Source of the DNA: a virus
Reading direction: 5' to 3' (one strand)
DNA: 64,000 bases
IMG/VR virus record: IMGVR_UViG_3300024265_000045
Coordinates: 8,577-72,576 of that record
The notes under the pieces are model-generated. The model searched no databases. It saw nothing but the letters and a program-made list of their open reading frames with translations, and was not told where the DNA came from. The translations under genes and the position numbers were made by a program. How positions within the stretch are numbered: position 1 is the first letter of the stretch; every line of letters starts with the position of its first letter. This document shows, piece after piece, positions 28,365 to 50,837 of this stretch.

Positions 28365-29711
28365 CTATCGTGCTGCTCCCATTGCCCATCCACCACGTGA
28401 GAAATCAAGCCAGTTGCAGAAATATCTAGCAGTATCCATGCCATGATCATTTGCCTTCAAAGGCTGTTCTTTCAGTTTATGGTCTTTCCAAATATATCCA
28501 TCATATTCTTGTTCACTACAAACTGGAAGAGATGCTTCTGCTAATTCTGGATCTACATTTAAAACACTGTCTCTAATATAGACTATCTCTGGAGCTGTAT
28601 TTTTTCCTTTAGGTTTTAGTCGAACTTTAACTTGCTCAATACCATCCAAAACATTCTTGATAGCAGCTTCAGTACCCATTTTCAAATGTCTTTCTAATGT
28701 AGCTCGTCCCTCTGCATCCCAATCACAAATTATTGTACTCGGAGTAGGTTCATGATTGGCTTCCTTCCAAGATAAAATCTGTCGAGCTGCATCTTCTACT
28801 AATAGCTGTGTTTGATAAATCTCAGCTATCCTATAAGCTACGTCATTCGGAGAAATCGCCCAACATTGCCAGACGAATGGGTTTATAAATCCAAAGTCTA
28901 CTACCCATACCCTCTCCCAATCTGACCTAACTTGTACTTCATTACGATTTAGCAAATGAAGAGTTGGATCCCACTCATTATAAATTAATCCCTCTGCTGC
29001 TGCCCAAATTCCCTTGTACAGTCTCAGTTTTCTTACCCCCGTGAGTCTCTGTAGTTTCAACATATACTGGTTCCCTTTTTCTGTCCACTCTTTTGTTACC
29101 TGATCAAACAGAACTGGATTATGTTGATGTTTTGAATAAATCATTTTCAAAAACCCTTTGTTCTCTCTGGCTTTAATCCAATGCCAAGGAACATCGGGGT
29201 TGCAGCAGCCGACTACCTGATTATATGATACTCGTCCGAAACGGCAGCGAGTCGTAAGTGCTTCCCAATCAGTCTCTGTCAACTCAGTAGCCTCCATAGC
29301 GTAGATTAAATCATACTCTGTTGACATGATTTTGCTCCACTTATCCATCCCTGCTACAACTATTTTACTTCCATTTACATATCTGAATTCCTGTTCTGCT
29401 GTCCGCCACTTTACAGTCTCATCTACCGGTAGTACAAATTCTCTAAAAGTTACCAGCCCTGATTGAGTAAGAGATTCTCTTGTCTTACGGATTAACAATG
29501 ACCGCATTCCATCATACTTTGAACTCATGAGGTGCATTTTTTCTAGCCATGATCTAGATTTCCCAGTACCACTAGGTCCCTCCACCATGACTTCTGGTTC
29601 TCTATTATAGAAAGCTTCAAGAGCAGAACCATAAGGCTGATAAGGTCTGCATCTTTTATCAATCTCAGCGAGATTTATGTTCTCAGTTAATACTTCAACT
29701 TGACCGGTCAT
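28365..29711 (-). CDS. terL: terminase large subunit (PBSX-like)
   Basis: EGPSGTGKS Walker A, YAMEATE, CNP, VVDFGFINP, NDHGMDTARY nuclease motifs. Confidence 0.95.
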   Translation of the reverse strand: MTGQVEVLTENINLAEIDKRCRPYQPYGSALEAFYNREPEVMVEGPSGTGKSRSWLEKMHLMSSKYDGMRSLLIRKTRESLTQSGLVTFREFVLPVDETVKWRTAEQEFRYVNGSKIVVAGMDKWSKIMSTEYDLIYAMEATELTETDWEALTTRCRFGRVSYNQVVGCCNPDVPWHWIKARENKGFLKMIYSKHQHNPVLFDQVTKEWTEKGNQYMLKLQRLTGVRKLRLYKGIWAAAEGLIYNEWDPTLHLLNRNEVQVRSDWERVWVVDFGFINPFVWQCWAISPNDVAYRIAEIYQTQLLVEDAARQILSWKEANHEPTPSTIICDWDAEGRATLERHLKMGTEAAIKNVLDGIEQVKVRLKPKGKNTAPEIVYIRDSVLNVDPELAEASLPVCSEQEYDGYIWKDHKLKEQPLKANDHGMDTARYFCNWLDFSRGGWAMGAAR

Positions 29712-31114: not shown

Positions 31115-31280
31115 GCAAATATTGTACCAGTTCGACAACCTGTTGGGCAAGCTTGAACACTACGAGTACATGTTAGCATGGGCAAAAAAGTATAGTGACT
31201 ACCAAACACAATACACTTACGCTTTACAAATTGCCCAAACTTGGGCAAGCATACGCCAAACAGCAAGCAGGATAAGATAA
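31104..31280 (+). CDS. hypothetical protein (58 aa)
   Basis: Hand translation MPSKQILYQFDNLLGKLEHYEYMLAWAKK...; overlaps the upstream stop and is followed by a hairpin. Confidence 0.5.
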   Translation: MPSKQILYQFDNLLGKLEHYEYMLAWAKKYSDYQTQYTYALQIAQTWASIRQTASRIR

Positions 31281-31300
31281 CCTACAACGTGCAACATACA

Positions 31301-31330
31301 AGGCAACCCACTGGCAACAGTGGGTTGTTT
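31301..31330 (+). terminator. intrinsic terminator-like hairpin
   Basis: aggcaacccactg-GCAA-cagtgggttgttt. Confidence 0.6.
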
Positions 31331-31520
31331 GCGTTATACAACCCAAGCAAGCCCTAGACCCACCCTAGTTTATGACGCAAACCAGTTTACGACCCCAACC
31401 AAATGGGTCTGCAAACTGGTTTATCTTCCAAACTGGTTTGTCTCGCAAACTAGTCTATCTCGCCAACAAGTCGTGTTTCAACCTTCCATCTCGCAGCCAA
31501 CAAATCGCCAAATAAATACT

Positions 31521-31769
31521 CTCGCGTATGATTTGTCGTTTCAAAATAAATAAACTCGCGTACGATTAACTAAATAACTCGCGTACGATCTACCCATCTC
31601 AAAATAAATCTCCGCGTACGACTAATAAAAATTCTCGCGTACGACTTATCATTTTAAAATAAATAAGTTCATGTACGATTTATTATTTTAAAATAAATAA
31701 GTTCATGTATGACTAATAAAAATTCTCGCGTATGATTAGGCATATCATTTAAGAAATCCTTGCGTATCA
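31521..31769. repeat. phased array of nine TCRYRTAYGA quasi-palindromes separated by A-tracts
   Basis: Copies near 31522, 31556, 31579, 31612, 31635, 31669, 31703, 31726, 31760; spacings 34,23,33,23,34,34,23,34. Confidence 0.85.
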
Positions 31770-31777
31770 TCAAAACG

Positions 31778-31821
31778 TTTACGTAGGATTTATTACCCCA
31801 GGACTTAGTTTGGGGTATACT
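31778..31821 (+). promoter_or_regulatory. TTTAC-box promoter
   Basis: TTTACG-tagga-TTTATT-N21-TATACT. Confidence 0.8.
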
Positions 31822-31879
31822 ATAGTTAGGAAATAAATTAGTTTTATGAAATGGGTAAAATGCCCGAAAGGTAAAAATT

Positions 31880-32140
31880 ATGGAAACACTTTATGTAGCA
31901 AGTCCTAGTAAATGGGTTGCCGAAATTACGGCGGTTACAAAACGCGAACTTGTAAACCACTACGGCGAAAACCCTGCCACCCTAAACAACGCCGAAGTTG
32001 CCTTATGCTTATACGACAACCCCAACCACAATTGGGACACGGTACTAGGCTTTATCCAAGAAGACCCTGCCAAATACAAAGTTTTCACAATTGGTTTTCT
32101 CGGGTTAGTATGGTTGTCATTTATGGCAGCTTGGTCGTAA
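31880..32140 (+). CDS. hypothetical early protein
   Basis: GAAAGGT RBS, first gene after the promoter. Confidence 0.65.
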   Translation: METLYVASPSKWVAEITAVTKRELVNHYGENPATLNNAEVALCLYDNPNHNWDTVLGFIQEDPAKYKVFTIGFLGLVWLSFMAAWS

Positions 32141-32206
32141 AACCAACCAACGGCAGGGTTTACGAAATGTAAGCCCTGCCCAATAATTTCTTAGAGGAGA
32201 TGCAAA

Positions 32207-32278
32207 ATGCAAGCTGAAATGGCTTTTCTCGTAAGTGTAGTGTATATTTCATATATGCTGCTACAATTCATAGGGTAA
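32207..32278 (+). CDS. 23-aa hydrophobic peptide MQAEMAFLVSVVYISYMLLQFIG
   Basis: GAGGAG RBS after an intergenic hairpin; hand translated. Confidence 0.45.
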   Translation: MQAEMAFLVSVVYISYMLLQFIG

Positions 32279-32281
32279 ATC

Positions 32282-32407
32282 ATGATTGAAATACACATAA
32301 ATGGTATCACGTTTTGGTTCAACAATGAAAATTGGCTACCAGTATCGTTTATACGTATCTGGTTAAACAGGGCTGACGACACCCCACAATTTCCTCCACG
32401 AAACTAA
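32282..32407 (+). CDS. 41-aa hypothetical protein
   Basis: MIEIHINGITFWFNNENWLPVSFIRIWLNR...; ends just before a terminator. Confidence 0.45.
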   Translation: MIEIHINGITFWFNNENWLPVSFIRIWLNRADDTPQFPPRN

Positions 32408-32418
32408 GCCCCAATCTC

Positions 32419-32455
32419 AGGCAAGCCACTCAGGAAATGGCTTGCCTCTCTTTTT
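32419..32455 (+). terminator. intrinsic terminator
   Basis: aggcaagcca-loop-tggcttgcct followed by ctcttttt. Confidence 0.75.
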
Positions 32456-32466
32456 GCCTACCAGTT

Positions 32467-32688
32467 TCGTGAATGACCACTGAGGGTAATTCATGAATGA
32501 CTAAATTCCTCACGTACGATTTTCCAAATCTACTTTGAAATAAATTCTCACGTATGATCAACAATTCACGTACGATCAAACATTCGTGTACGATTAAAAG
32601 TTCACGTACGACTGAAAATTTTACAAAAAAAATCTTCGCGTATGACTGGCATTCATATATGATTAGGAACTCATATACGAGCGTACGA
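32467..32688. repeat. second TCRYRTAYGA array (10-11 copies)
   Basis: Copies at 32467, 32491, 32510, 32548, 32566, 32584, 32602, 32636, 32653, 32671; mostly 17-19-bp period. Confidence 0.85.
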
Positions 32689-32700
32689 CTCGTCCAGGCT

Positions 32701-32744
32701 TTTACGTAGGATTTATTACTACAGGACCCAATAGGGGCTATAAT
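32701..32744 (+). promoter_or_regulatory. TTTAC-box promoter
   Basis: TTTACG-tagga-TTTATT-N21-TATAAT. Confidence 0.8.
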
Positions 32745-32801
32745 ATAAATAAGACTAAATTTATTTTATGAGTTGGGCAAAAAAGCCCGAAAGGTAAAAA
32801 A

Positions 32802-33143
32802 ATGTATCACGAAGTACACGCATGTTTCAACAAAGGTAGCAAAATCGCGTTAGTACAAGTTATTCTCACAAATAACAAATACATTCGCGAACAGCAGTGG
32901 CATCTCGAGAAGCCCATTAAAATCACAACAGAAATGGTAAAAGACGACCTGTACAATTGCGCAGGGTCGCACAGCTGGCAGGTCTTTGAAAAATTCATAT
33001 ATGACTTCACAGCCCCGTACCCTTTCAACAAGCCTTACGACCCCAAAAGCAAGTGGATCATAAAGCTACTTGGTATTTTCGGGCTATGGGTTTCAATTGT
33101 GTTGGTCACCGACGACGCCACACAGTACGAACCCATAAAGTAA
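32802..33143 (+). CDS. hypothetical early protein
   Basis: GAAAGGT RBS, ends at hairpin A. Confidence 0.65.
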   Translation: MYHEVHACFNKGSKIALVQVILTNNKYIREQQWHLEKPIKITTEMVKDDLYNCAGSHSWQVFEKFIYDFTAPYPFNKPYDPKSKWIIKLLGIFGLWVSIVLVTDDATQYEPIK

Positions 33144-33202
33144 GTCTTGGTAGGGGGTACAAGCCAATTTCGCGGAAGTTGGTTTGTAGGGTCTACCAAG
33201 AC
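33144..33202 (+). repeat. intergenic hairpin element A
   Basis: gtcttggtagg-ggg-14 bp stem-ggg-tctaccaagac. Confidence 0.85.
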
Positions 33203-33227
33203 CACAAAATCATAAAGGAGTTCAAAA

Positions 33228-33653
33228 ATGAACGGCAAGGTCATAAAAATACAGTTCGGTGATTGGCTCGAGGACGTGCTAAACAGCAATCTCGAAGCCA
33301 ATTGTGTCAAGGTGGGGCATACGTCCCACACAGGCACAAACGAACTCTACGTTGAGTTTGGGTTAAGTGACCCTAACTACATGAAGTTTGTAGCAAAAGG
33401 TTCGTGGGACGAAATACGTGTACAGCTCGCAGAGGAATTCGGCTACGAATTCACTGGTGTTCAGGACTGGGTACTACCCAATCTTGAGGTTTACATTGAA
33501 ACTGGCGTACAGGTAAACGTCACAGTAAACTGGCATGGTACGAAGCATGTACACCGTGGTCAGGAAACGTACAACTACGAGATCATGGTAAACGAAGGCT
33601 ACGGGGTCCACTACTGTAACAAGCTCAACGACTGGGCAACAATTCGCAAATAA
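33228..33653 (+). CDS. hypothetical early protein
   Basis: AAGGAG RBS, bracketed by hairpins A and B. Confidence 0.7.
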   Translation: MNGKVIKIQFGDWLEDVLNSNLEANCVKVGHTSHTGTNELYVEFGLSDPNYMKFVAKGSWDEIRVQLAEEFGYEFTGVQDWVLPNLEVYIETGVQVNVTVNWHGTKHVHRGQETYNYEIMVNEGYGVHYCNKLNDWATIRK

Positions 33654-33654
33654 A

Positions 33655-33714
33655 GTCTTGAAAGGGGGTACAAGCCCAGGTCGTGAGAGCTGGTCTTGTG
33701 TAGCCTTTCAAGGC
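33655..33714 (+). repeat. intergenic hairpin element B
   Basis: gtcttgaaagg-ggg-tacaag...cttgtg-tag-cctttcaaggc. Confidence 0.85.
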
Positions 33715-33740
33715 TAAAATCAAATATGAAGGAGTAAATC

Positions 33741-33947
33741 ATGTTAGCCCAACTCAAACGTGAAATTAAGTACGGGGTCGGTGCAAAAATTCGGTGCTGG
33801 CTGCTCAGTCATGACTGGCGTCTCGATGACTACTGGGACGAAGGCATGTTCAATCACATGTGCGCTCGCTGCGAAAAGTCAGCATACTTTGAATCGCAGC
33901 AAGACGACCCAGGTCCGGGATACAAACGCTGGTACGAAGGTATGTAA
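33741..33947 (+). CDS. small Cys/His zinc-binding protein
   Basis: AAGGAG RBS; C...HDW...CARC motif; bracketed by hairpins B and C. Confidence 0.65.
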   Translation: MLAQLKREIKYGVGAKIRCWLLSHDWRLDDYWDEGMFNHMCARCEKSAYFESQQDDPGPGYKRWYEGM

Positions 33948-34008
33948 GGTCTTGAAGGGGGGTACAAGGTAATTTCATTGAAGTTATCTTGTATAGCCTT
34001 TCAAGGTT
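33948..34008 (+). repeat. intergenic hairpin element C
   Basis: ggtcttgaaggg-ggg-tacaaggtaatttc-att-gaagttatcttgta-tag-cctttcaaggtt. Confidence 0.85.
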
Positions 34009-34031
34009 AAATAATCTAAAAGGAGATTATC

Positions 34032-34178
34032 ATGAAATGCCCACGTACAAAATTCTGTAACGGAAACGGCAAGCACATAACCACGCTCACAACTGATTAC
34101 AACTTAGTGACAAAATTGTACAGGTGTGAGAACTGCAAGTTCCGCTTTGCCAAGTCCTCGTACCCCGAACGCTCGTAG
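34032..34178 (+). CDS. 48-aa zinc-ribbon protein
   Basis: AAGGAG RBS; MKCPRTKFC...YRCENCKFRF; below the ORF-track cutoff. Confidence 0.65.
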   Translation: MKCPRTKFCNGNGKHITTLTTDYNLVTKLYRCENCKFRFAKSSYPERS

Positions 34179-34198
34179 CACATGAGCTCGTACCCTTA

Positions 34199-34242
34199 TT
34201 AACTCACAGTTTATTGTGGTACGAACCTATATGGGGTATACT
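34199..34242 (+). promoter_or_regulatory. TTTAC-box promoter (variant)
   Basis: TTAACT-cacag-TTTATT-N21-TATACT; downstream sequence nearly identical to the 31778 promoter. Confidence 0.7.
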
Positions 34243-34300
34243 ATAGTTAGGAAGTTAATTAGTTTAGGAAATGCCCAAAATGGGCGAAGGAGTAAACGAA

Positions 34301-34801
34301 ATGTCTAAGCAAGACCCCCTATACACTCTGGATATGGGTATGGCAAGTGATGCAACAGGCGATGCAATGCACCCTGTCATCTACCTGTACCCACACGAAG
34401 ACCCCCACAGAATCCAAGTTGAAGCCAAGCTGTGGGAAGGCACAGGGCTATACCACCAAGACGAAAAGGTGTTCGCCCTACTGCTGGTAAGTCAAGAAAG
34501 GTTGGAGATCGCAAAGTTTGCTTGCCGTAATATTCTCCGTATAATACACTTCTATGCGGAAAATGGCGTATTCGTAGAACCCAAAAATTTCACAGCAATT
34601 GTGAACTTTGGTTCACGACAAGGGTACGAGGTCAACGATTTCGCGGATTTTGTACTCCTCACCATAATGCTTTTCACCCAACACCCCGACGCTTGCAAAG
34701 CTAATGTTCACGAGGCAGTTGGCAAGGCGACCTTATTATGGGAAACCCGCATATGCGATCCTTGTGCAAGTTTTGAGAAGTTAGGCACAGCGAGCTTCTA
34801 A
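34301..34801 (+). CDS. hypothetical early protein
   Basis: Start moved to the ATG after the GAAGGAG RBS. Confidence 0.65.
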   Translation: MSKQDPLYTLDMGMASDATGDAMHPVIYLYPHEDPHRIQVEAKLWEGTGLYHQDEKVFALLLVSQERLEIAKFACRNILRIIHFYAENGVFVEPKNFTAIVNFGSRQGYEVNDFADFVLLTIMLFTQHPDACKANVHEAVGKATLLWETRICDPCASFEKLGTASF

Positions 34802-34802
34802 A

Positions 34803-34860
34803 TCTTGAAGGGGGGTACAAGGCAATCTCGTAGAGGTTGTCTTGTATAGCCTTTCAAGGC
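34803..34860 (+). repeat. intergenic hairpin element D
   Basis: tcttgaaggg-ggg-tacaaggcaatctc-gta-gaggttgtcttgta-tag-cctttcaaggc. Confidence 0.85.
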
Positions 34861-34885
34861 TAAAACTAAAATAAGGAGAATTACA

Positions 34886-35356
34886 ATGTCAGAACAAGAA
34901 ATACCCCCGTACCAAATCCCAGACTACCTTGCCAAGTGGGTCGGAAATGACCCTGTCCATGAAATTGTTAGCGAAAAAGCAACTATGAAATACTATTGTG
35001 AAGACGGGCAAATTTTGGACGACTCAGGCTATCAGTCTGGTGGTCTCATAGTAGTACAGTTACCTAACCAGACTCCAGGTGGCTATTTCTACTGCCGGTA
35101 TCCTGAAACAGCAGTTTCATGGATGCTTACCCATAAGCTCGTGGATAACCACGACATTTGCTTTTACCACGCCGACGACCCGTATGATTTCAGCTTATTA
35201 GGCGACGACGGTATTAGTGGAAAAGCCTACATAGTCTTAAGCCACCTTCACGATGGGATTTCATCAATGTTGTGGCACGACCACTTACGGGAGGCACACC
35301 TAACTTCCGAACAGGCAAAGTTCATTAGCGAGTGGGTAGGGTATCAATACGCATAA
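34886..35356 (+). CDS. hypothetical early protein
   Basis: AAGGAG RBS, bracketed by hairpins D and E. Confidence 0.7.
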   Translation: MSEQEIPPYQIPDYLAKWVGNDPVHEIVSEKATMKYYCEDGQILDDSGYQSGGLIVVQLPNQTPGGYFYCRYPETAVSWMLTHKLVDNHDICFYHADDPYDFSLLGDDGISGKAYIVLSHLHDGISSMLWHDHLREAHLTSEQAKFISEWVGYQYA

Positions 35357-35415
35357 GTCTTGAAAGGGGGTACAGGCAAAGATCACAGATCTTTTCCTGT
35401 ATAGCCTTTCAAGGC
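35357..35415 (+). repeat. intergenic hairpin element E
   Basis: gtcttgaaagg-ggg-tacaggcaaagatc-aca-gatcttttcctgta-tag-cctttcaaggc. Confidence 0.85.
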
Positions 35416-35441
35416 AAAAACTAGAAAGGAGGTATCAAACA

Positions 35442-35657
35442 ATGGAATCGCAAAAACCCAAAGAAGTTACACTCGACGAAGCCCTGGCAAAAGCCGAGGC
35501 GAACCAGCCGGTATATCTCATTAAAAACCCGATGAAGATACGGCAAGAACCCACAGCAGATCTCGGTAGCCATGTCGAAAGCGAAGCTATCCAGAAAGCC
35601 AAAAAGAAGAAGCGCAAAGTCGCGAAGAAATCTCGTAAGAAGAATCGGCGTAAGTAA
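35442..35657 (+). CDS. small protein with very basic C-terminal tail
   Basis: AAGGAGG RBS; KAKKKKRKVAKKSRKKNRRK. Confidence 0.7.
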   Translation: MESQKPKEVTLDEALAKAEANQPVYLIKNPMKIRQEPTADLGSHVESEAIQKAKKKKRKVAKKSRKKNRRK

Positions 35658-35675
35658 TCAACAACGGAGGATCAA

Positions 35676-35960
35676 ATGACAGCAATTTATAACATTCCGA
35701 CACATGGCGGGGAAGGACACACAACCTACGAAGAAAGCCCCATGTGTCAGACCTGCCTATTGAGTTTCGTAGGCGGAGACGAAGATAAGCTCGTAGCCTG
35801 GTGGGTTCGTGACACAAACGAGCCTTGCATAAATGAAGATAAACCTACTTGTAAGGACTATGATGCTGACCGCAGATTACGAGAAAGTGGGGCTTACACA
35901 ATCAATAGAGGAGGTTGTCAAGTACGCAAGAGACGTAAAGGTCCTCCCTGTAAGTTATAA
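35676..35960 (+). CDS. hypothetical Cys-containing protein
   Basis: GGAGG RBS; CQTC. Confidence 0.55.
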   Translation: MTAIYNIPTHGGEGHTTYEESPMCQTCLLSFVGGDEDKLVAWWVRDTNEPCINEDKPTCKDYDADRRLRESGAYTINRGGCQVRKRRKGPPCKL

Positions 35961-36054
35961 ATCATGCAGAGAGCTCGTACGGTATGATCACTCGTACGGT
36001 TACAGGCTCGTATGACCTCTCGCATGACGGAACATAAACTCACTCGTACAAATG

Positions 36055-36098
36055 TTTACGTAGGATTTATAGTTCTAAGATCCGAACTAAGGTATAAT
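36055..36098 (+). promoter_or_regulatory. TTTAC-box promoter
   Basis: TTTACG-tagga-TTTATA-N21-TATAAT, preceded by CTCGTA repeats. Confidence 0.8.
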
Positions 36099-36133
36099 GT
36101 AATCAGAATAAACTATAGCAAAAGGAGAATATA

Positions 36134-36427
36134 ATGTCAGGACCAATTAATTTCACACCTGGAAATCAAGAGGCTCACATTGAGCAATTTCCGACAGGAA
36201 AGCCCGACGAACCTGCAATCGCAGCTTTTGGAGCTTTCAAAGGTCGCCCATATTTCGAAGTACACAAGCTCTACAGCAGGGATGACGGCAGCGTCCATTA
36301 CGGCAAACAACTTTGTCGAGTGGACGTGTCCTGCGCCCGCAAGATGGCAGAGGCAATCCTGCGTAGCGTTGAGAGCTGGGAAGAGGCTATCCAACCCGTT
36401 CCAGAACCATTTGATTCAAGCAAGTAA
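36134..36427 (+). CDS. PC4/YdbC-like ssDNA-binding protein
   Basis: FKGRPYFEVHKLY..DDG....K pattern followed by an amphipathic helix. Confidence 0.6.
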   Translation: MSGPINFTPGNQEAHIEQFPTGKPDEPAIAAFGAFKGRPYFEVHKLYSRDDGSVHYGKQLCRVDVSCARKMAEAILRSVESWEEAIQPVPEPFDSSK

Positions 36428-36507
36428 TTTGAAAAGCATGGGGGGATTTAGCTGAAAGTCTATGAATAATCGTGGGCTTTTAACTAAATAACAAAAGGAG
36501 AAAATAA

Positions 36508-36657
36508 ATGAAACAAAACATTATAATCAAAATATCCAGGAAGCTTCGTATGAAAAATCTGAAAATACGATGTTCTGGATGTGGGAAATATAGGTCTCGA
36601 GAGCAATTGGCAATACGCTCGTACGGTTTTATCTGTGGAGACTGCTGGTACGCATGA
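36508..36657 (+). CDS. 49-aa zinc-finger protein
   Basis: AAGGAG RBS; RCSGCGK...ICGDCW; hand translated. Confidence 0.6.
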   Translation: MKQNIIIKISRKLRMKNLKIRCSGCGKYRSREQLAIRSYGFICGDCWYA

Positions 36658-36919
36658 CGCCTTAAAATAGGTCCGTGAGCCGTTACTACTGTTTACTACT
36701 TTTTAAATACTGTGTTTTTAGGGTCAAGTTTATGATATACTACTATGATACTGCCCAGCCTAGTCAAGGGGTAAAAGCGATACGGCTTACGGTACTAGGT
36801 TATAGCGTCATGCAACCATGTAAATGACGCCATAAAGTGGTCCTGTGCTCCCTATAAAACACAGTATTTAAAAACAGGTAAACACTACTAACGGCTCACG
36901 GACCTAGCTTATGGCGTCA
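36655..36919. repeat. large imperfect inverted repeat (about 70-bp arms)
   Basis: tgacgc..taggtccgtgagccgtta..tgtttac..tttttaaatactgtgtttt mirrored at 36846-36919; inner hairpin near 36800-36836. Confidence 0.85.
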
Positions 36920-37050
36920 CCCAACATTACGCTTATGAAGACCTTTTCCACCACCATTCCCATACAGACGTCCCCATACCCCACCGCTTCGCGGGAGGCA
37001 TTTCCAAATCTCTCAACTACCTTACAATCACCACCTATAGGAGAAACATT

Positions 37051-37263
37051 ATGTCAGATGAACACAGAATATCTTTAGAGGACCTCAGTAGAAAATTGGC
37101 AAGAAAAAAAGGAACCATTGGGCTCGTAGGAAAAATATTGGAGACACAAAACAGTACGATTAAGCTACTTCTAGTTGTGCAGGAAGCAAATGTCGCTTCA
37201 ATTAAAGAATTAGAAGAAAGGATTACGTTTATCGAGAAAACCTCGTTCCCGTACGTGCCGTAA
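37051..37263 (+). CDS. small coiled-coil protein
   Basis: ataggagaaacattATG leader. Confidence 0.65.
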   Translation: MSDEHRISLEDLSRKLARKKGTIGLVGKILETQNSTIKLLLVVQEANVASIKELEERITFIEKTSFPYVP

Positions 37264-37286
37264 GTTCCCACCCATAGGAGAAACAT

Positions 37287-37475
37287 ATGCTAAAAGAATA
37301 TAAAAGAAGGAAGCAGGCACTTCTCGGCGACATTATCAATTTGGAGGATCGGATTAAGGAGAAAAGGACTAATCTGATTGCGCTTGAGGTTTTAATCAAA
37401 CACTATACGAAAAGAAAAACTGCTAAGGAACCTCACACTTGCCGTACCTGTGGAGAACGTTGTGATTATTGTTAG
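37287..37475 (+). CDS. coiled-coil plus zinc-finger miniprotein
   Basis: Same leader; C-terminal CRTCGERCDYC. Confidence 0.65.
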   Translation: MLKEYKRRKQALLGDIINLEDRIKEKRTNLIALEVLIKHYTKRKTAKEPHTCRTCGERCDYC

Positions 37476-37535
37476 CAGAAATATCCTCGACCCTCGCTCT
37501 GCGAGTCTTAAGATCACCATCCATAGGAGAACAAT

Positions 37536-37730
37536 ATGTCTGAACTAGAAAGAAAAATAGAAGAGACGCAAACTAAAATTTCAAGGCTGAATAGAGATAT
37601 ATCTGGGGCTTTGGGGACATTACATAGGCTCATGTGTACAAAGGATACACTTACTCTGAAAATGTATAAGTTGAAGAGTCAAAGAGAGTGGATGCCTGGA
37701 TGTAATAGACCATACCCTACCTCAACCTGA
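37536..37730 (+). CDS. small coiled-coil protein
   Basis: Same leader. Confidence 0.65.
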   Translation: MSELERKIEETQTKISRLNRDISGALGTLHRLMCTKDTLTLKMYKLKSQREWMPGCNRPYPTST

Positions 37731-37800
37731 GCCTTACCCACTCACTCCCTAGCATTTGGAGCCACAAGATCACTACTGTTCGTACCCTATAGGAGATAAA

Positions 37801-37974
37801 ATGAAGATACAATTTATAACTGATGCAGGAACTATTGTTCAAGAGATGGAAGATATACAGGACTGGGAACTGTCCAAAAGTATAGCTCGAGCGTTCTTTA
37901 CATCTGAGGTCGAAGAAGCGATTGCAAAGACGCTCAAAGAAGAGCAGATTGAGAAAGAGCAAGGAATTGTTTGA
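37801..37974 (+). CDS. hypothetical protein
   Basis: Start reassigned to the ATG after ataggag. Confidence 0.6.
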   Translation: MKIQFITDAGTIVQEMEDIQDWELSKSIARAFFTSEVEEAIAKTLKEEQIEKEQGIV

Positions 37975-38005
37975 AATATACTCGTATCCCCAAAAGGAGA
38001 ATATT

Positions 38006-38179
38006 ATGTCAGAACAGCTGATTCAGATTCAATTAGACATACTGGAGAAAGCTATCGAGGAAAAGCAGGAACGATTAGATGAAATAGATGTTGAGATGTG
38101 GGACATGCTCTTGGAAAAGACTAAGATTAAAAGTGATTTGATCACGCTTTGCCGTAAGCACGAAGAAATACGTAAGTAA
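38006..38179 (+). CDS. 57-aa coiled-coil protein, paralog of 38427-38621
   Basis: MSEQLIQIQLDILEKAIEEK...KSDLITLCRKHEEIRK. Confidence 0.7.
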   Translation: MSEQLIQIQLDILEKAIEEKQERLDEIDVEMWDMLLEKTKIKSDLITLCRKHEEIRK

Positions 38180-38363
38180 GGAGTTTCAAATGATAGTACA
38201 TAGACTTTGGATAACAGATGTTAAGGTCAGACAAACCAAGCTCGGTAACAGGAAGAAGACTGAGTGGACTGGTTGGTTCTGTTTGGATTTATTCCTCTGT
38301 TCATTAAGACTATTAGCGTCGAGTACAGGTACTTGTAGTTCGTATCGTTCCAAAATGAGATCC

Positions 38364-38392
38364 TTGCATAATGAATTGATCTATGGTATAAT
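38364..38392 (+). promoter_or_regulatory. sigma70-type promoter (copy 1)
   Basis: TTGCAT-N17-TATAAT with TG extension. Confidence 0.75.
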
Positions 38393-38426
38393 AGTAGTGG
38401 AAAAATAAAAAGTAAAGGAGAGTAAT

Positions 38427-38621
38427 ATGTCCGAACAAGATATACAAGTTCTGTTAGATGTACTTGAGAAAGCTATTGAAGACAAGCGGAAGCGTCTTTT
38501 ACGAGTAAATCAACGTCTTTTCCAAATAGATCAAGAAGTGTTCGATCTACTGATTGAACAGACGACGTTGAAGAGCGATCTGACAACGCTCCGTCGCAAG
38601 CACGAGGAATTACGTAGATAA
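38427..38621 (+). CDS. 64-aa coiled-coil protein
   Basis: MSEQDIQVLLDVLEKAIEDK...KSDLTTLRRKHEELRR. Confidence 0.7.
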   Translation: MSEQDIQVLLDVLEKAIEDKRKRLLRVNQRLFQIDQEVFDLLIEQTTLKSDLTTLRRKHEELRR

Positions 38622-38631
38622 GGAGAGTAAT

Positions 38632-38883
38632 ATGTCATTGGCAAAGCAATTAGAGCTAACCACTAACAGACGACGTCAGCAAGAATTACGTAAAGAAATA
38701 CAGATGCTTGAGCTGATAATTAAGAAGTTATGTTATCAGTCTAATGCTGCTAACTGCGAGCTTGATGTTGTGATCGAGTTGAATCTTAAAATTCAAGCTC
38801 AGAGAAAGCTGATAAGTCGAAAAGACAAAATGATACGGAGGTTAGTTAGTCGAGAAGGAATTCTTCTGAGGATGAAGGTATGA
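38632..38883 (+). CDS. coiled-coil hypothetical protein
   Basis: AAGGAG RBS. Confidence 0.6.
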   Translation: MSLAKQLELTTNRRRQQELRKEIQMLELIIKKLCYQSNAANCELDVVIELNLKIQAQRKLISRKDKMIRRLVSREGILLRMKV

Positions 38884-39167
38884 GGATTCATTTAGAAAAA
38901 TCTGACTATGCAAAAAGTGTAGCAGAGATAGAAATGGAGATTATTTTAATTCTAAATCGAAATAACGTAATTTGTCCTCGCTGCCATACCTTTGATCATG
39001 GGGGTTGGTCAATTATTATTAGGGATGAACTATTAGCTTCGGAGGATATCCTTCAAAGTAAAGGATATTGGTTAGTTTGGTGTAGATGCTTCCATGTATT
39101 TAGATATAGTCCACAAGCAAATCTTACTTTAAGAATATCCGGAGGAAAGATATGTACAAATCTGTGA
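38880..39167 (+). CDS. zinc-ribbon hypothetical protein
   Basis: CPRC...CRCFH; ATGA coupling. Confidence 0.55.
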   Translation: MRIHLEKSDYAKSVAEIEMEIILILNRNNVICPRCHTFDHGGWSIIIRDELLASEDILQSKGYWLVWCRCFHVFRYSPQANLTLRISGGKICTNL

Positions 39168-39172
39168 AGCAC

Positions 39173-39201
39173 TTGCATAATGACTTGATCTATGGTATAA
39201 T
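39173..39201 (+). promoter_or_regulatory. sigma70-type promoter (copy 2)
   Basis: Near-identical to 38364-38392. Confidence 0.75.
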
Positions 39202-39234
39202 AGTATTAGAAGAATAAAAGCAAAGGAGAACAAT

Positions 39235-42200: not shown

Positions 42201-42428
42201 GTAAAAATGGAGAAGAATAATGAAGGTTTACATGATATTTGTAAGAAGTGTGGTTTCTACGAAACTTGTGAAGCAGAAGGATGTTTCATTATTGATCATA
42301 TAAACAGCCTGGAGCAAAAGGTTGAGTGGTTGAAGAGTGAACTGGAAAGTTACAAACTTCAAAATAACATGCTACAAAGTCTTGTTCGAGCAACCTCTTC
42401 TGATCTGACCGAAAAACAGGAAAAATAA
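39235..42428 (+). other. run of about 11 small co-oriented hypothetical genes
   Basis: ORFs at 39235, 39464, 39834, 40069, 40359, 40666, 40896, 41191, 41460, 41933 and 42207, mostly with AAGGAG RBS or stop/start coupling; no recognisable family. Confidence 0.6.
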
Positions 42429-42440
42429 TTCGTCCAGCCT

Positions 42441-42484
42441 TTTACACAAACTTTACGTACATATGACCTTGTATATGGTAGAAT
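42441..42484 (+). promoter_or_regulatory. TTTAC-box promoter
   Basis: TTTACA-caaac-TTTACG-N21-(TGg)TAGAAT. Confidence 0.8.
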
Positions 42485-42524
42485 AAATTAAGTGGAAAAA
42501 TTCCACTGGAAGGAATTATCCGAA

Positions 42525-44234: not shown

Positions 44235-44398
44235 GAAAATAATTGGAGAGGTAATGAAAATCATAAATAGATTATTATGTAGATTTGGGATACACTCGTA
44301 TACAAAATGGGATAACTGTTTCATTACAATGCAAGTACGATTCTGTATTCGATGTAATATTCGTAGAATTCGGTCAGTTAGTTTTAGAGGAGAACAAA

Positions 44399-47300: not shown

Positions 47301-49072
47301 AAGACTTACGATGATAAAGAAAAAGAATAATGGATAAGACATTTAAAATTGTTAGAGCAACTATAGATAGTGACGATAAATTTGTAAGTTTCTTTTCTGG
47401 ACCTCATAAGTTAATTTATTCTACAGAATTTTACACATTTCCTAAAATTGGATACGTTTTTACTTTTTCCTCCAGAGACTTTGCTGTTCAATTTTTGAAA
47501 GAGCAAGTACCTTTACCAGAAATAGGCTCTCTTTATTCGATATGGTTGTGTCAAGGAACTAAAGTAGAGGATTGCTCTGTGTTCCAAAGAGCTATATCTA
47601 GAGTAGATTACGAGATATTTTGGGAAGACTTTGCTCAAGGAGTTCTGCAGAAAGATGTACGTGTCAATTTCGATTTTGCTCCACTTGGAACAGAGTGGTT
47701 CAAAAATTTAAAATTGCTTGAGAGGATTGAATGAAAAAGAAAAATGTAATTGTGTATAATGAAGAAGTTATTGTTTGTGATAATCATGAAGTATACGGTA
47801 ATATTCTGGATGATAGAGATAAGGTAATTTTCTTGGAGATGGCTGTTCTTCAAGATTGGTTGAATTCTCGCCTTCCCAATACCTTTGCTCTCTCTGACAT
47901 TGCCATGTTGGGAGAAGTTCAAATTTATGCGAAAATATTGGCAGAGTCTTATCCAACTTATCAAGTTGCAATTATTTGGAATTGTTCTGTTGAACAGTCA
48001 GCTTTATACAAAGATGATTGGGGTGAAGCTATAGATCAAATTGACTGTGAATTTTCTAGAACTTTCGTAGAAAGAATTCCAAGAATGATAGAGTTGGAAC
48101 AACTTGTGGAGAAAGAATAATGACTGATAAAAAAGGTTTATACGAAAAATATGAAGTTTTCAAAAATAGAAAACCTGTCAAAGGAGCATTTGTGCTTCTT
48201 CCAGAGAAAGACATTCATGCTTTATTTGCTTTACGGATGTATGCTGTGGAAGTCAGACATAGTAATCCTATTCTTGCCTCAGATATAGAAGACTGGATAG
48301 GTAGATTAATTGCGGAGGAAATTCGTGACAGTAGTGATGAGGTGTAATAAATGTAGACGAGAGTCTTTAAATGGAGCTAAACTAGGAAACGATTGGATTG
48401 AAATAAAAGTAACAATCAATCACTGGCATGATCAGGGTAAAGACTACCATGAAAATGAAACCTGGAATGAGCTTGAAGTAATAACGAGACATCTATGTTT
48501 GGATTGCGCTGTTGAGATAAGCGGTCCATTGCAAGCTCTTTGGGATGCTGTATATTGTCGAAAAGGAGGTGAATAGAATTACAGACTTTTGAATTAAGTT
48601 CATAATTATATAAGGAGAACATATAATGAAAAGAACAAAAGTAAAAATCATTTTATCTATACTCATAATATTGGTAGTATTGACAATGACGGCTTCAAGT
48701 TGTCAACCATCCTCAGATCAGATCGTTAATTGGGTAGCTCTTCACACCTGGTTTTTCATTGATAGTACCGAAACTGCCATCAATGGATTTGCTCTGCTTG
48801 GTCCGTATGGGATGTCGGCGCAGATATCTGTCATCGGAGCTCAAGTTCATGTTAGTCTAACTCAAATGACTCCGGAACATATATTCGGGAATACCTTATG
48901 GTACACTCAGCAAGGGTGGGCTAGATTTACGTATTGGGGTCTTCCGCTTGCCGTTCAGGAAGCTTTAATTACGGAGATTACATTTTCTATCCCTCTTTAT
49001 GCTGAAGGAATTTGGTTCATTCCCTATTTTGAGGGAATGCTTGATTTTGGTCCGGTAGTAACTGACGTGTAA
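44399..49072 (+). other. run of about 12 small co-oriented hypothetical genes, several with CxxC pairs or coiled coils
   Basis: ORFs at 44399, 44758, 44999, 45562, 45836, 46243, 46634, 47115, 47330, 47731, 48120, 48310 and 48626 (the last with a signal/lipoprotein-like N-terminus). Confidence 0.6.
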
Positions 49073-49115
49073 GTACCATTTGAGCTGCTAATTTCGGTTA
49101 GCAGTTCAGATGGAG

Positions 49116-49159
49116 TTTACACAAAGTTTATGTGTCCAAGACTAGATATTTGTTATAAT
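49116..49159 (+). promoter_or_regulatory. TTTAC-box promoter
   Basis: TTTACA-caaag-TTTATG-N21-(TGt)TATAAT, directly after a 17-bp UUCG hairpin. Confidence 0.75.
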
Positions 49160-49218
49160 AAGTTAGATGGAGTTATAAATGGTAATTCAAGTCAAATGGT
49201 TTACAATTGAGGTGAAAG

Positions 49219-49425
49219 ATGACTAAATTAATGATCATTAATTTTGCTATTCAACAATGTCCGAGTTGTGGCAAGAGACTAATGTATGATAGAGCGGAAT
49301 ATATTAATCATACGAGTCATTCTTGTGATTGTGGTGTTCGCTTTATTTATGCTGAAAAGGAAGCGATGCTTAAATTGGCTGACAGTATAGAAAGTGATAT
49401 GAGACATTATGAGGAAAAAGTTTAA
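49219..49425 (+). CDS. zinc-ribbon protein
   Basis: CPSCG...CDCG. Confidence 0.6.
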   Translation: MTKLMIINFAIQQCPSCGKRLMYDRAEYINHTSHSCDCGVRFIYAEKEAMLKLADSIESDMRHYEEKV

Positions 49426-49427
49426 TT

Positions 49428-49691
49428 ATGAAGACAATATCAATAGATGATAAATGGATTGCTCTTATTGATGAACCTAATCCGTGGGGATCTATAACTA
49501 ATATGCGTTCTAAGAAAACATATGCTTGGAAGGCTTATCAACATAAAACTGAAGCGGGAGTTATTTGGATGGAAATCCTGGATGAAAAATTAGAAAAAGC
49601 TGGATTATCTGAAAATATAGTGATAAAACTTCTTGAGATTGCTAAAAATTGTTTCAAAACTATGGAGGGAGGTGATGGAACTTTTACGTAA
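49428..49691 (+). CDS. hypothetical protein
   Basis: Coupled ORF. Confidence 0.5.
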   Translation: MKTISIDDKWIALIDEPNPWGSITNMRSKKTYAWKAYQHKTEAGVIWMEILDEKLEKAGLSENIVIKLLEIAKNCFKTMEGGDGTFT

Positions 49692-49727: not shown

Positions 49728-49788
49728 ATAAATATCCAAAGATGGATTAATTACCAAGATATATTCAAAATGAAAAGGAGATTTAAAA

Positions 49789-50292: not shown

Positions 50293-50377
50293 GCTCATCT
50301 GATCCTCCGATAAAAGTGGGGGAGCTAGTTTGTGGTCATGCTGGCTTCCCCACTGATATAAAAACAAGGAGTTCAAA

Positions 50378-50611: not shown

Positions 50612-50837
50612 ATTGGCGAGAAATTTCATTTGTGGATACAATTGGATTATTCCTTCAAATGGCTAGTTCGTACGAAGGTCCTCCTGATGGACTAGCTTTC
50701 AAAATAATCCATATGGGAATTATCCTAAAATTATCAAGCAGGATTTTTGTCAGATGTTTGCTAAAATCTCCGGAGCAGGTATTGCCTCCGGAGATTCTAG
50801 CAGACATTTGTCTGACTAATTCAAAAAGGAGAATCAA

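What the first reader, a model, noticed from the sequence alone, without database searches (positions are those of the whole stretch)
33144..35415. Single-gene cassettes delimited by five covarying 59-60-nt hairpins of fixed geometry
Seen: elements at 33144, 33655, 33948, 34803 and 35357 each start within 0-2 nt of a TAA stop and end about 10-15 nt before the next AAGGAG RBS. All fold as an ~11-bp lower stem, a 3x3 internal loop (GGG opposite TAG or GGG), a 14-bp upper stem starting TACA, and a 3-4-nt loop. The apical sequence differs in every copy yet pairing and length are kept, with compensatory change (GGTA/TACC versus GAAA/TTTC) and G-U pairs on the plus strand. The flanked genes are unrelated to each other. 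Known: T7 early mRNA is cut at RNase III hairpins with internal loops; integron attC sites are single-strand hairpins that bound one-gene cassettes. Inference: a new structured element that either cuts the early transcript into monocistronic units or serves as a recombination site for shuffling accessory genes, possibly both.
Basis: partly seen in the sequence, partly recalled or inferred. Interest (0 to 1): 0.85.

Follow-up and report, generated by a model that had tools for sequence, protein, structure and literature searches.

The report
Phage early-operon RNA processing hairpins
Five near-identical 60-base RNA hairpins sit between the first small genes of an uncultured tailed phage and most likely mark where the early multi-gene message is cut and stabilised, as in phage T7, so the kind is known though this family is new.

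Summary
Five copies of a two-tier hairpin lie on the + strand at 33144, 33654, 33950, 34803 and 35357. Each has a 10-12 bp lower stem, a G-rich 3x3 (or 2x2) internal loop, a 14-15 bp upper stem and a 3-4 nt loop. Each fills a fixed 84-87 nt spacer between a TAA stop and the next Shine-Dalgarno site. Pairing is kept by compensatory changes, and 15 G.U pairs make the sense-strand RNA 6-14.6 kcal/mol more stable than the antisense. There are exactly five copies in the 72.6 kb phage genome. I found none in Rfam, IMG/VR, metagenome or genome collections, or in the nearest relatives (TerL 57% identity or less).

They follow repeated host-type promoter modules and separate unrelated ORFan genes. None has a U-tract, a promoter, attC core sites or bulged bases. 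The genome has no detectable integrase, resolvase, RecT, ERF or RecA.

The five T7 early intergenic hairpins, folded and aligned here, show the same pattern: a conserved core around an internal loop and a covarying apex.

Best reading (about 0.55): intercistronic RNase III-type processing and 3'-stabiliser signals. This is a new sequence family of a known kind. Cleavage is untested. The attC-like model is rejected. A PeSL-like role as recombination hot spots stays open.

The parts
33144..33202 (+). Hairpin H1, in the 84-nt spacer between the TAA of ORF 32802-33143 and the ATG at 33228
   Evidence: RNA MFE -35.5 kcal/mol, z -7.7. Antisense fold -25.3. CM R1 80.5 bits. Spacing.
33654..33715 (+). 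Hairpin H2, in the 87-nt spacer between ORF 33228-33653 and the ATG at 33741
   Evidence: MFE -35.4, z -7.0. Antisense -24.6. CM 83.9 bits.
33950..34007 (+). Hairpin H3, in the 84-nt spacer between ORF 33741-33947 and the ATG at 34032
   Evidence: MFE -28.9, z -7.5. Antisense -14.9. CM 86.1 bits.
34803..34860 (+). Hairpin H4, in the 84-nt spacer between ORF 34301-34801 and the ATG at 34886
   Evidence: MFE -32.9, z -7.5. Antisense -18.3. CM 89.3 bits.
35357..35414 (+). Hairpin H5, in the 85-nt spacer between ORF 34886-35356 and the ATG at 35442
   Evidence: MFE -33.7, z -8.5. Antisense -27.7. CM 89.2 bits.
32802..35960 (+). Eight small early ORFs, each with an AAGGAG-type ribosome site: 32802-33143, 33228-33653, 33741-33947, 34032-34178, 34301-34801, 34886-35356, 35442-35657, 35676-35960. 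The first seven are the ones separated by the hairpins or by promoter P3.
   Evidence: ORFs and ribosome sites. Pfam gave no hit over the curated cut-off and PHROGs gave one weak hit of unknown function. No paralogy among them. For the two proteins searched, the only full-length hit in billions of proteins was the protein itself; one also had a single weak 27-residue match.
32690..32767 (+). Promoter module P2, which would drive the operon holding H1-H3. It is one of four repeated modules.
   Evidence: Repeat family D4. The alignment of the four modules shares a TTTACGTAGGATTTAT box and a TATAAT or TATACT box. Promoter activity is inferred.
34188..34265 (+). Promoter module P3, which would drive the operon holding H4-H5. 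It takes the place of a hairpin after ORF 34032-34178.
   Evidence: Inferred.
31767..31844 (+). Promoter module P1, the first + strand early unit, which has no hairpin of this family
36044..36117 (+). Promoter module P4, which marks the end of the hairpin-bearing block
   Evidence: (family D11).
32421..32455 (+). Ordinary terminator-like hairpin: a 9-bp G+C-rich stem followed by a T-run. It shows what a plain terminator looks like in this phage.
   Evidence: Read directly from the sequence. The consensus scan missed it because its loop is 9 nt.
36446..36489 (+). Unrelated intergenic hairpin that ends just before the next ribosome site
   Evidence: MFE -20.5 as sense against -6.9 as antisense.
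49067..49122 (+). Unrelated two-tier hairpin (7 bp, 2x2 loop, 17 bp) that starts in the stop codon of ORF 48626-49072
   Evidence: MFE -32.3 as sense against -22.6 as antisense.
50315..50354 (+). Unrelated hairpin between ORF 49789-50292 and the next ribosome site
   Evidence: The 85-nt spacer holding it folds at -34.5 as sense against -24.6 as antisense.
50749..50814 (+). Unrelated long hairpin just upstream of the ribosome site of ORF 50838-51257. It folds about equally on both strands.
   Evidence: MFE -42.4 against -44.0.

Best explanation
The five elements are RNA signals in the sense transcript of two early operons of an uncultured 72.6 kb tailed phage.

How it would work. Host RNA polymerase starts at the repeated promoter modules P2 (32690-32767) and P3 (34188-34265) and makes polycistronic early mRNAs. 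Each spacer between cistrons folds into a helix of about 25 bp, roughly two turns, interrupted by a conserved G-rich internal loop. That loop lies one turn (11 bp) above the base of the hairpin. A double-strand-specific endonuclease, most likely the host's RNase III, binds this helix and cuts at or beside the internal loop. The upstream cistron is then left with a stable 3' hairpin that blocks 3'-5' exonucleases. The downstream cistron starts with an unstructured A-rich leader about 25 nt long that carries its Shine-Dalgarno site. The early message therefore becomes a set of stable units that can be translated independently, as in T7.

Shown: the positions, the fold, the covariation, the sense-strand bias, the fixed module length, and the absence of terminator, promoter and recombinase features.

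Inferred: that the promoters fire, that one transcript spans the sites, that RNase III is the enzyme, and where it cuts.
For: 1. Position. Each hairpin starts 0-2 nt after a TAA and ends 13-15 nt before GGAG, in spacers of 84-87 nt. All lie inside two gene strings that follow repeated promoter modules.

2. It is an RNA feature of the sense strand. 15 of 125 pair cells are G.U. The sense folds are -28.9 to -35.5 kcal/mol and the antisense folds -14.9 to -27.7, and the sense strand is the more stable in 5 of 5 copies.

3. Structure is selected. 96.8% of cells pair, and 8 of 25 pairs carry double changes (0 of 500 shuffles reach this). Slid controls pair at 34-54%.

4. What is conserved. The invariant columns cluster at the top of the lower stem, in the internal loop and in the first four pairs of the upper stem. 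The apex and the stem base vary.

5. T7 control. Folding the five T7 early intergenic regions gives two-tier hairpins with upper stems of 9-13 bp; one example is 8 bp, a 4x5 loop and 10 bp. Aligned, they form a family with a conserved core around the loop and a variable apex.

6. Literature, read as passages. RNase III substrates typically have two helical turns. Internal loops limit cutting to one strand, and the resulting 3' hairpin protects the RNA. Five signals process the roughly 7000-nt T7 early precursor (PMC1540722; PMC3867540).

7. Not terminators. None of the five is among the 6 terminator-like sites of the scan. The 3' flanks are A-rich. A real stem-plus-T-run terminator exists at 32421-32455.

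8. The same phage has four further long intergenic hairpins of unrelated sequence in + strand operons. Three of the four fold 10-14 kcal/mol better as sense RNA. Structure rather than sequence is what recurs.
Against: - No RNA data exist. The only public run that holds the region is the DNA run it may have been assembled from.
- The host is unknown, so its RNase III and that enzyme's rules cannot be checked. The phage encodes no RNase III of its own.
- The upper stem (14-15 bp) is longer than the T7 ones. The 28-nt upper-stem product reported for the T7 R1.1 variant R1.1[WC] (PMC1540722) implies a cut about 12 bp from the loop. In these hairpins that point would fall 2-3 bp above the internal loop rather than in it.
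- The copies are more alike than structure alone needs: 85% mean column identity over the hairpin and 68-82% over whole modules. This could equally reflect recent duplication or a sequence-specific partner.
- The covariance model does not recognise the T7 sites (best score 12.2 bits), so the likeness is analogy and not homology.
- Relatives with 42-57% identical terminase show no such family, so it is not a conserved trait of the lineage.
Confidence: 0.55

Rival explanations
1. The hairpins are RNA elements that work without RNase III. They would be passive barriers to 3'-5' exonucleases, paired with RNase E-type cuts in the A/U-rich linker. Alternatively they would be insulators or attenuators that uncouple translation or reduce read-through from one cistron to the next.
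For: The evidence is the same as for the main reading: intercistronic position, sense-strand bias and covariation. An A-rich single-stranded stretch of 13-15 nt follows each hairpin. In T4-type PeSLs a stem-loop alone reduced downstream reporter expression about as strongly as a strong terminator (PMC2839356, passage; its supplementary figure was not seen).
Against: A plain exonuclease barrier needs neither a conserved internal loop one turn above the base nor a helix of about 25 bp. There is no U-tract. The most conserved part is the loop and its flanking pairs, which points to recognition of that spot.
Confidence: 0.2
2. The modules act mainly as DNA-level recombination modules, like PeSLs of T4-type phages. 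The repeated spacers of about 85 bp would serve as homology patches where general recombination inserts, deletes or swaps the ORFan genes between them. Any RNA role would be secondary.
For: The whole spacers are repeated in direct orientation at 68-82% identity, with exact runs of 10-20 nt. They flank unrelated ORFans. The block is richer in G+C (44-47%) than the + strand genes downstream of it, which are mostly 32-42% with some local peaks. PeSLs are repeated intergenic cassettes that flank ORFans and recombine without a dedicated recombinase (PMC2839356).
Against: Homology alone does not explain the compensatory changes, the G.U bias toward the sense strand or the hairpins of unrelated sequence elsewhere in the genome. 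The hairpin modules carry no promoter-like site on the + strand, unlike PeSLs. No RecT, ERF, RecA or YqaJ-type function was detected. No relative or variant was available to show shuffling.
Confidence: 0.1
3. The hairpins are binding sites for a phage-encoded protein. Candidates are a lambda-N-like antiterminator, a translational operator protein or a phage endoribonuclease. The protein would recognise the conserved GGG loop and UACA stem base.
For: Sequence conservation around the loop is higher than pairing requires. The gene right after H5 (35442-35657) ends in a strongly basic tail rich in lysine and arginine. Several neighbouring ORFs are small and cysteine-rich, like zinc ribbons.
Against: No ORF in the block matches any RNA-binding or nuclease family. 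Five sites per 2.3 kb is unlike known nut or put systems (recalled). This reading is not testable with these tools.
Confidence: 0.08
4. The hairpins are attC-like single-strand recombination sites that bound integron-type gene cassettes.
For: There is one gene per interval, all in one orientation, and a folded site with a central unpaired region at each 3' end.
Against: No Phage_integrase or Resolvase domain was found in the record, which CheckV rates 100% complete (the controls rang in 14 and 13 of the 14 control genomes). The internal loops are symmetric and there is no bulged base. The stem ends read GTCTTGR and YCAAGRC, which does not fit the attC core consensus as I recall it. Each downstream gene has its own ribosome site inside the module, and the modules have a fixed length, whereas attC sites vary widely in length (recalled).
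Confidence: 0.02
5. The hairpins are plain transcription terminators.
For: They are stable G+C-containing hairpins placed directly after stop codons.
Against: No T-run follows them on either strand. None of the five appears in the terminator scan. Only 24-27 nt lie between the hairpin and the next start codon, with no + strand promoter-like site there, so the downstream genes would go unexpressed. A conventional terminator in the same region, at 32421-32455, looks different.
Confidence: 0.05

Closest known systems
RNase III processing signals of the phage T7 early transcript (R0.3, R0.5, R1, R1.1, R1.3)
   Same: There are five sites between the cistrons of an early operon transcribed by host polymerase. 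Each is a two-tier hairpin with an internal loop. The sites form a sequence family with a conserved core around the loop and a covarying apex. Some begin at or in the upstream stop codon. The known outcome is a single-strand cut that leaves a protective 3' hairpin (PMC1540722 and PMC3867540, passages).
   Different: There is no sequence homology (best CM score 12.2 bits). Here the helices are longer (11 + 14-15 bp against about 8 + 9-13 bp). The internal loop is symmetric and G-rich (3x3 or 2x2) rather than asymmetric (4x5 in the one that folded cleanly). The copies are more alike (85% against 59% mean column identity). The phage has a tail tape-measure protein and no detected T7-type RNA polymerase (the control for rang in no genome). 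Naming the T7 regions as the R sites rests on my recall, because the record shown lists no RNase III features.
PeSL cassettes (promoter-early stem-loop) of T4-type phages
   Same: Both are repeated intergenic modules of about 100 bp. [quoted passage not shown] No dedicated recombinase is involved (PMC2839356).
   Different: A PeSL contains a strong sigma-70-type promoter, and its stem-loop acts as a terminator. The hairpin modules here have no promoter-like site and no T-run. In this phage the promoter sits in a separate repeated module. Recombination between copies is shown for PeSLs and untested here.
ESAS/SAS repeats of Cluster K mycobacteriophages
   Same: Both have imperfect inverted repeats with a short variable spacer placed directly upstream of a conserved repeat that contains the ribosome-binding site. 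Both occur in front of a subset of genes and in one orientation. The function of ESAS/SAS is stated to be unknown (PMC3203893, passages).
   Different: ESAS arms are 17 bp against about 28 nt here. ESAS/SAS occur in 11-19 copies spread across the genome and are conserved across a whole phage cluster. The sequences are unrelated by eye. No covariation or strand-bias analysis was reported in the passages I read.
Integron attC sites
   Same: Both are folded sites at the 3' end of single promoterless genes, with a central unpaired region.
   Different: Here there is no integrase, no bulged bases, no core-site match, a fixed length, and a ribosome site built into each module.

Membership tests
Phage early-mRNA RNase III processing signals (T7 type) | Lies between cistrons of a polycistronic early transcript made from host-type promoters | tested here: met
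   The hairpins fill 84-87 nt spacers between ORFs downstream of repeated promoter modules. The transcript itself is inferred.
Phage early-mRNA RNase III processing signals (T7 type) | About two turns of double helix interrupted by an internal loop or bulge | tested here: met
   11 + 14 pairs with a 3x3 loop, or 10 + 15 pairs with a 2x2 loop. The criterion comes from PMC1540722 and PMC3867540.
Phage early-mRNA RNase III processing signals (T7 type) | The structure is a property of the sense RNA and is maintained by selection | tested here: met
   8 pairs carry double changes, with 0 of 500 shuffles reaching that. The sense strand is 6.0-14.6 kcal/mol more stable in 5 of 5 copies.
Phage early-mRNA RNase III processing signals (T7 type) | Cleaved by RNase III at a defined phosphodiester in or next to the internal loop | not testable with these tools
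   No RNA run holds the region. This needs an enzyme assay or end mapping.
Phage early-mRNA RNase III processing signals (T7 type) | Sequence or profile homology to the T7 sites | tested here: not met
   CM R1 scores at most 12.2 bits on the T7 early region. I therefore treat the likeness as functional analogy, not common descent.
Integron attC | An integron-type tyrosine recombinase encoded nearby | tested here: not met
   PF00589 gives 0 matches in the complete record, while the control rang in 14 of 14 genomes. PF00239 also gives 0.
Integron attC | Extrahelical bases and conserved R''/R' core sites at the stem base (recalled definition) | tested here: not met
   The loops are symmetric and there are no single-base bulges. 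The stem ends read GTCTTGR and YCAAGRC.
PeSL (T4-type) | A sigma-70-like early promoter inside the repeated motif | tested here: not met
   None of the 22 promoter-like sites of the scan lies on the + strand within the five modules.
PeSL (T4-type) | Recombination between copies that reshuffles the flanked ORFans or makes mini-circles | not testable with these tools
   There are no close relatives. Only contigs of the probable source run could be laid.
Intrinsic terminator | A G+C-rich stem followed directly by a U-run | tested here: not met
   None of the five is among the 6 sites found. The flanks are A-rich.
Any Rfam family | A score at or above a family's gathering threshold | tested here: not met
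   0 matches in the whole window at gathering thresholds. Only 3 chance-level matches with E of 4.2 or more appear in 31200-36200.

The most novel reading that the evidence does not exclude
The 85-nt spacers are self-contained, portable 'stop-hairpin-leader-ribosome site' modules with two roles. As RNA they are cut so that each ORFan gets its own stable message. As DNA their direct repeats let the phage capture, lose and reorder host-takeover ORFans without any dedicated recombinase. That would be an integron-like cassette system built on an RNA processing signal. The conserved G-rich loop might be read by a phage early protein rather than, or in addition to, host RNase III.
Probability: 0.12. 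Interest if true: 0.6.

Novelty: new member of a known kind. Interest (0 to 1): 0.35.

Why it matters
If the reading is right, the T7 strategy of cutting an early multi-gene message into stable single-gene pieces at structured spacers has arisen independently. The phage here is an unrelated tailed phage from a subsurface community that depends on host polymerase.

It would also give a compact, well-defined module that could be tested as a genetic insulator between genes. And it would offer a structural signature for recognising early operons in uncultured phage genomes, namely long intercistronic hairpins that fold best as sense RNA and lack a U-tract.

It is not a new principle. The value lies in a clean, testable example and in a sequence family that no database holds.

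Tried and rejected
Searches for further copies or relatives all came back empty.
- blastn 'distant' of 32400-36200 against 50,697 phage records gave no match.
- The 14-base degenerate pattern in IMG/VR gave 85 single-hit stretches. I ran the covariance model on 80 of them (L006-L085) and found nothing better than 15 bits, E 0.44. I take these as chance hits.
- A strict two-arm pattern gave 0 hits in metagenome contigs and 0 in genome contigs. A looser pattern gave 0 in genome contigs and 0 in viral contigs.
- Terminase relatives: there were 7 loci in IMG/VR at 42-57% identity and 19 in metagenomes, with none closer. The covariance model with filters off on the 7 gave a best score of 17.3 bits, in an unrelated G+C-rich palindrome. 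With default filters on 16 of the 19 it gave 0 hits. The 3 I left out were L098, L099 and L105, which are the same contigs as L091, L092 and L094.
- A window fold scan and an inverted-repeat scan of the regions upstream of the terminase gene in L091 and L092 showed no repeated hairpin family.
- The cassette proteins had no tblastn hit in L091-L097 and no relatives in IMG/VR for the 3 proteins tried.
- The first 8.7 kb of the record, which lies outside the window, holds no copy.

Expression and variants. There is no RNA holder listed; one DNA run holds the region and may be its source. Laying its contigs showed one identical contig, no joints and no variants. Contigs drop rare forms, so this says nothing about excision.

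Rejected ideas.
- Terminator, attC and PeSL membership: see the membership table.
- CRISPR-like or anti-CRISPR repeat RNA: there is no Rfam hit, the units are 60 nt, and they are separated by genes.
- N4-type hairpin promoters: the stems are far longer and the longest ORF is a 1344-aa tape measure protein. This comparison is recalled.
- tRNA-like elements: none found.
- A host-derived REP or MITE: there is no copy in 185,579 species genomes by exact pattern. That search would miss diverged copies.

Limits.
The PeSL terminator and promoter assays cited in PMC2839356 are in supplementary figures that I did not see.
- The PF00940 search is uninformative because its control rang in no genome.

Full report
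**What the window is.**
The window is bases 8577-72576 of a 72,576-bp virus record that CheckV rates as complete.
- The minus strand of the left half carries structural and packaging genes, including a tape-measure protein at 7949-11983 and a large terminase at 28365-29711.
- From about 31.8 kb to 52.9 kb the plus strand carries some sixty small genes, most with AAGGAG-type ribosome sites.
- No tyrosine or serine recombinase, RNase III, RecT, ERF, RecA, YqaJ or sigma-70 domain was detected in the record.
- The search for a T7-type polymerase was uninformative because its control rang nowhere.

- The five elements are at the stated places.
- The 5' arm motif occurs 5 times, all on the plus strand, against 0.15 expected. 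A covariance model built from the five copies, run over the whole window with filters off, finds only these five at 80-89 bits. The next unrelated hit scores 15.5 bits. The 8.7 kb of the record outside the window holds none.
- Each copy folds at -28.9 to -35.5 kcal/mol, with z-scores of -7.0 to -8.5. They rank 2, 3, 4, 5 and 11 among all non-overlapping 66-nt windows of the plus strand.
- On the alignment the proposed structure pairs 121 of 125 cells. Eight of 25 pairs change on both sides, which no shuffle in 500 reaches. Sliding the partners by one to three columns lowers pairing to 34-54%.
- The geometry is an 11-pair lower helix, a 3x3 loop (GGG opposite UAG, or GGG in copy 1), a 14-pair upper helix and a 3-4 nt loop. 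In three copies the thermodynamic fold closes one more G.U pair, giving a 2x2 loop.

**Anatomy of the module.**
- The repeated unit is the whole spacer and not just the hairpin. The stop codon is always TAA. The hairpin begins 0-2 nt later, GGAG follows the hairpin by 13-15 nt, and the spacers measure 84, 87, 84, 84 and 85 nt. TAA ends 41 of 71 crude long ORFs in the window, so five of five is not remarkable.
- Whole modules are 68-82% identical to one another, and their longest shared exact runs are 10-20 nt.
- Similarity stops at the stop codon and at the start codon.
- The invariant columns cluster at the top of the lower stem, in the loop and in the first four pairs of the upper stem. The apex and the base of the stem vary.

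**Strand and molecule.**
- Fifteen of the 125 pair cells are G.U. These become A-C mismatches on the other strand.
- As a result the sense RNA folds at -35.5, -35.4, -28.9, -32.9 and -33.7 kcal/mol, and the antisense at -25.3, -24.6, -14.9, -18.3 and -27.7.
- A structure that is selected on the coding strand only, in a transcribed spacer, points to RNA rather than to duplex DNA or a cruciform.

**Context.**
- Four copies of a second repeated module lie at 31767, 32690, 34188 and 36044. Each has a TTTACGTAGGATTTAT box, a TATAAT or TATACT box and a short 5'-leader hairpin.
- The first two modules are preceded by arrays of a 10-nt motif: 13 of its 14 window matches fall in two plus-strand clusters, against 1.7 expected.
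- I read these modules as early promoters for host polymerase, which is an inference.
- Hairpins H1-H3 separate the four genes that follow the 32690 module. H4 and H5 separate the first three of the four genes that follow the 34188 module.
- Where a promoter module follows a gene (after 34178 and after 35960) there is no hairpin of this family.
- A conventional terminator-like stem with a T-run lies at 32421-32455. The five hairpins have A-rich 3' flanks, and none appears among the six terminator-like sites of the scan. No plus-strand promoter-like site lies within them.
- The flanked proteins are unrelated to each other. None passes a Pfam cut-off, and PHROGs gives only one weak hit of unknown function. 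For the two proteins searched, the only full-length hit in the large protein collections was the protein itself; one also had a single weak 27-residue match.
- The block is richer in G+C (44-47%) than the plus-strand genes after it, which are mostly 32-42% with some local peaks.

**Other hairpins in the same operons.**
Four further long hairpins of unrelated sequence sit in plus-strand spacers. They lie directly after a stop or before a ribosome site, at 36446-36489, 49067-49122, 50315-50354 and 50749-50814. Three of the four fold 10-14 kcal/mol better as sense RNA. One of them has the same two-tier plan (7 bp, 2x2 loop, 17 bp). What recurs in this phage is therefore structure in the message, not a particular DNA sequence.

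**Comparison with T7, done here.**
- I fetched the T7 early region and folded the five intergenic stretches that I recall as the RNase III sites. The record as shown lists no such features.
- They give two-tier hairpins with upper stems of 9-13 bp. One clean example has 8 bp, a 4x5 loop and 10 bp.
- Aligned, they form a family with a conserved core flanking the internal loop and a variable, compensating apex, at 59% mean column identity. This is the same pattern as here.
- My model does not recognise them, so the relation is analogy.
- Passages I read state the following. E. coli RNase III substrates typically have two helical turns. Internal loops limit cleavage to one phosphodiester. The resulting 3' hairpin protects against 3'-5' exonucleases (PMC1540722; PMC3867540). 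Five signals process the roughly 7000-nt T7 early precursor.

**Mechanism proposed.**
- Host polymerase transcribes each operon.
- The spacer RNA folds into a helix of about 25 bp whose internal loop lies one turn above the base.
- RNase III, or a like enzyme, cuts at or near that loop.
- The upstream message keeps a stable 3' hairpin, and the downstream message starts with an open A-rich leader and its ribosome site.
- The fold, the positions and the selection on structure are shown. The transcript, the enzyme and the cut site are inferred.
- Points against this reading: the upper stem is longer than in T7. A cut 12 bp from the loop, as implied by the 28-nt product of the T7 R1.1 variant R1.1[WC], would fall just above the loop rather than in it. 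The copies are also more alike than pairing requires.

**Rivals.**
- A passive exonuclease barrier or an attenuator would explain the position but not the conserved loop.
- A PeSL-like role as homology patches for shuffling ORFans (PMC2839356) is compatible with the direct repeats and the ORFan content. It does not explain the covariation or the strand bias, and the modules lack the promoter that defines a PeSL. It may coexist with the RNA role.
- The attC model fails on the integrase, on bulged bases and on the core sites.
- A phage protein that reads the loop is possible but has no support beyond the sequence conservation and a basic-tailed neighbour gene.
- ESAS/SAS repeats of Cluster K mycobacteriophages are another published case of inverted repeats placed just upstream of a conserved ribosome-site repeat, and their function is unknown (PMC3203893).

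**Relatives and data that could not be had.**
- No copy of the hairpin exists in Rfam, in the phage records searched, in IMG/VR, in the metagenome contigs by exact pattern or in the species genomes by exact pattern.
- The nearest terminase relatives are at most 57% identical and lack the family.
- The only sequencing run that holds the region is DNA and is probably its source.
- The questions of cleavage and of cassette shuffling therefore remain experimental.

**Verdict.**
The feature is real and statistically solid. It is a new sequence family, best read as intercistronic RNase III-type processing and stabilising hairpins of a phage early operon. That makes it a new member of a known kind. 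It is of moderate interest, and the tests that would settle it are clear and cheap.

Noticed in passing
window 31522-31735 and 32510-32645 (+): There are two arrays of a 10-nt motif (TCNYGTAYGA), 7 and 6 copies, all on the + strand. Each array lies just upstream of an early promoter module. 13 of the 14 window matches fall in these arrays, against 1.7 expected. They may be binding sites for a regulator or an upstream promoter element. Looser copies seem to precede the 36044 module.
   Followed up: partly
window 31767-31844, 32690-32767, 34188-34265, 36044-36117 (+): Four copies of a promoter-like module are present. Three of them carry a short 5'-leader hairpin just before the ribosome site, and its arms are swapped between copies (GGGC..GCCC against GCCC..GGGC). 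That suggests a conserved 5' stabiliser.
   Followed up: partly
window 36655-36919: A large inverted repeat lies in a 393-nt non-coding gap. Its arms are 64 nt, 88% complementary and 137 nt apart, and the gap folds at -131.7 kcal/mol. It could be a structured RNA or a replication or packaging site.
   Followed up: no
window 32800-36000 versus 37000-52000: The hairpin-bearing early block is 44-47% G+C, while most of the later + strand genes are 32-42%. A second G+C-rich island lies at 49600-50600 and also ends in a long hairpin.
   Followed up: no
window 38363-38410 and 39172-39219 (+): Two 92% identical copies of a textbook sigma-70-type promoter (TTGCAT, 17 nt, TG-TATAAT) are present. They may be middle promoters (family D16).
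   Followed up: no
window 37993-38073 and 38414-38494 (+): Neighbouring small genes share 74% identical 5' ends including the ribosome site, which points to a tandem duplication of a small early gene (family D10).
   Followed up: no
window 42492-44234 (+): A 580-aa protein has a weak N-terminal match to RIIA-type lysis inhibition or exclusion proteins (PHROG E 8.8e-09).
   Followed up: no
protein P0001: The cluster representative for the 156-aa cassette protein is 99% identical, not 100%, and sits on a 72,566-bp contig. A near-identical second assembly of this phage therefore exists in the protein collection.
   Followed up: no
L092 6727-6819; L091 about 4417-4482 and 6391-6456: Distant terminase relatives carry their own short repeated motifs upstream of the terminase gene (in L092, tandem copies of a unit of about 24 nt containing GGTATCGCG). 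The region may correspond to the control region here. They have no hairpin family like the one studied.
   Followed up: partly
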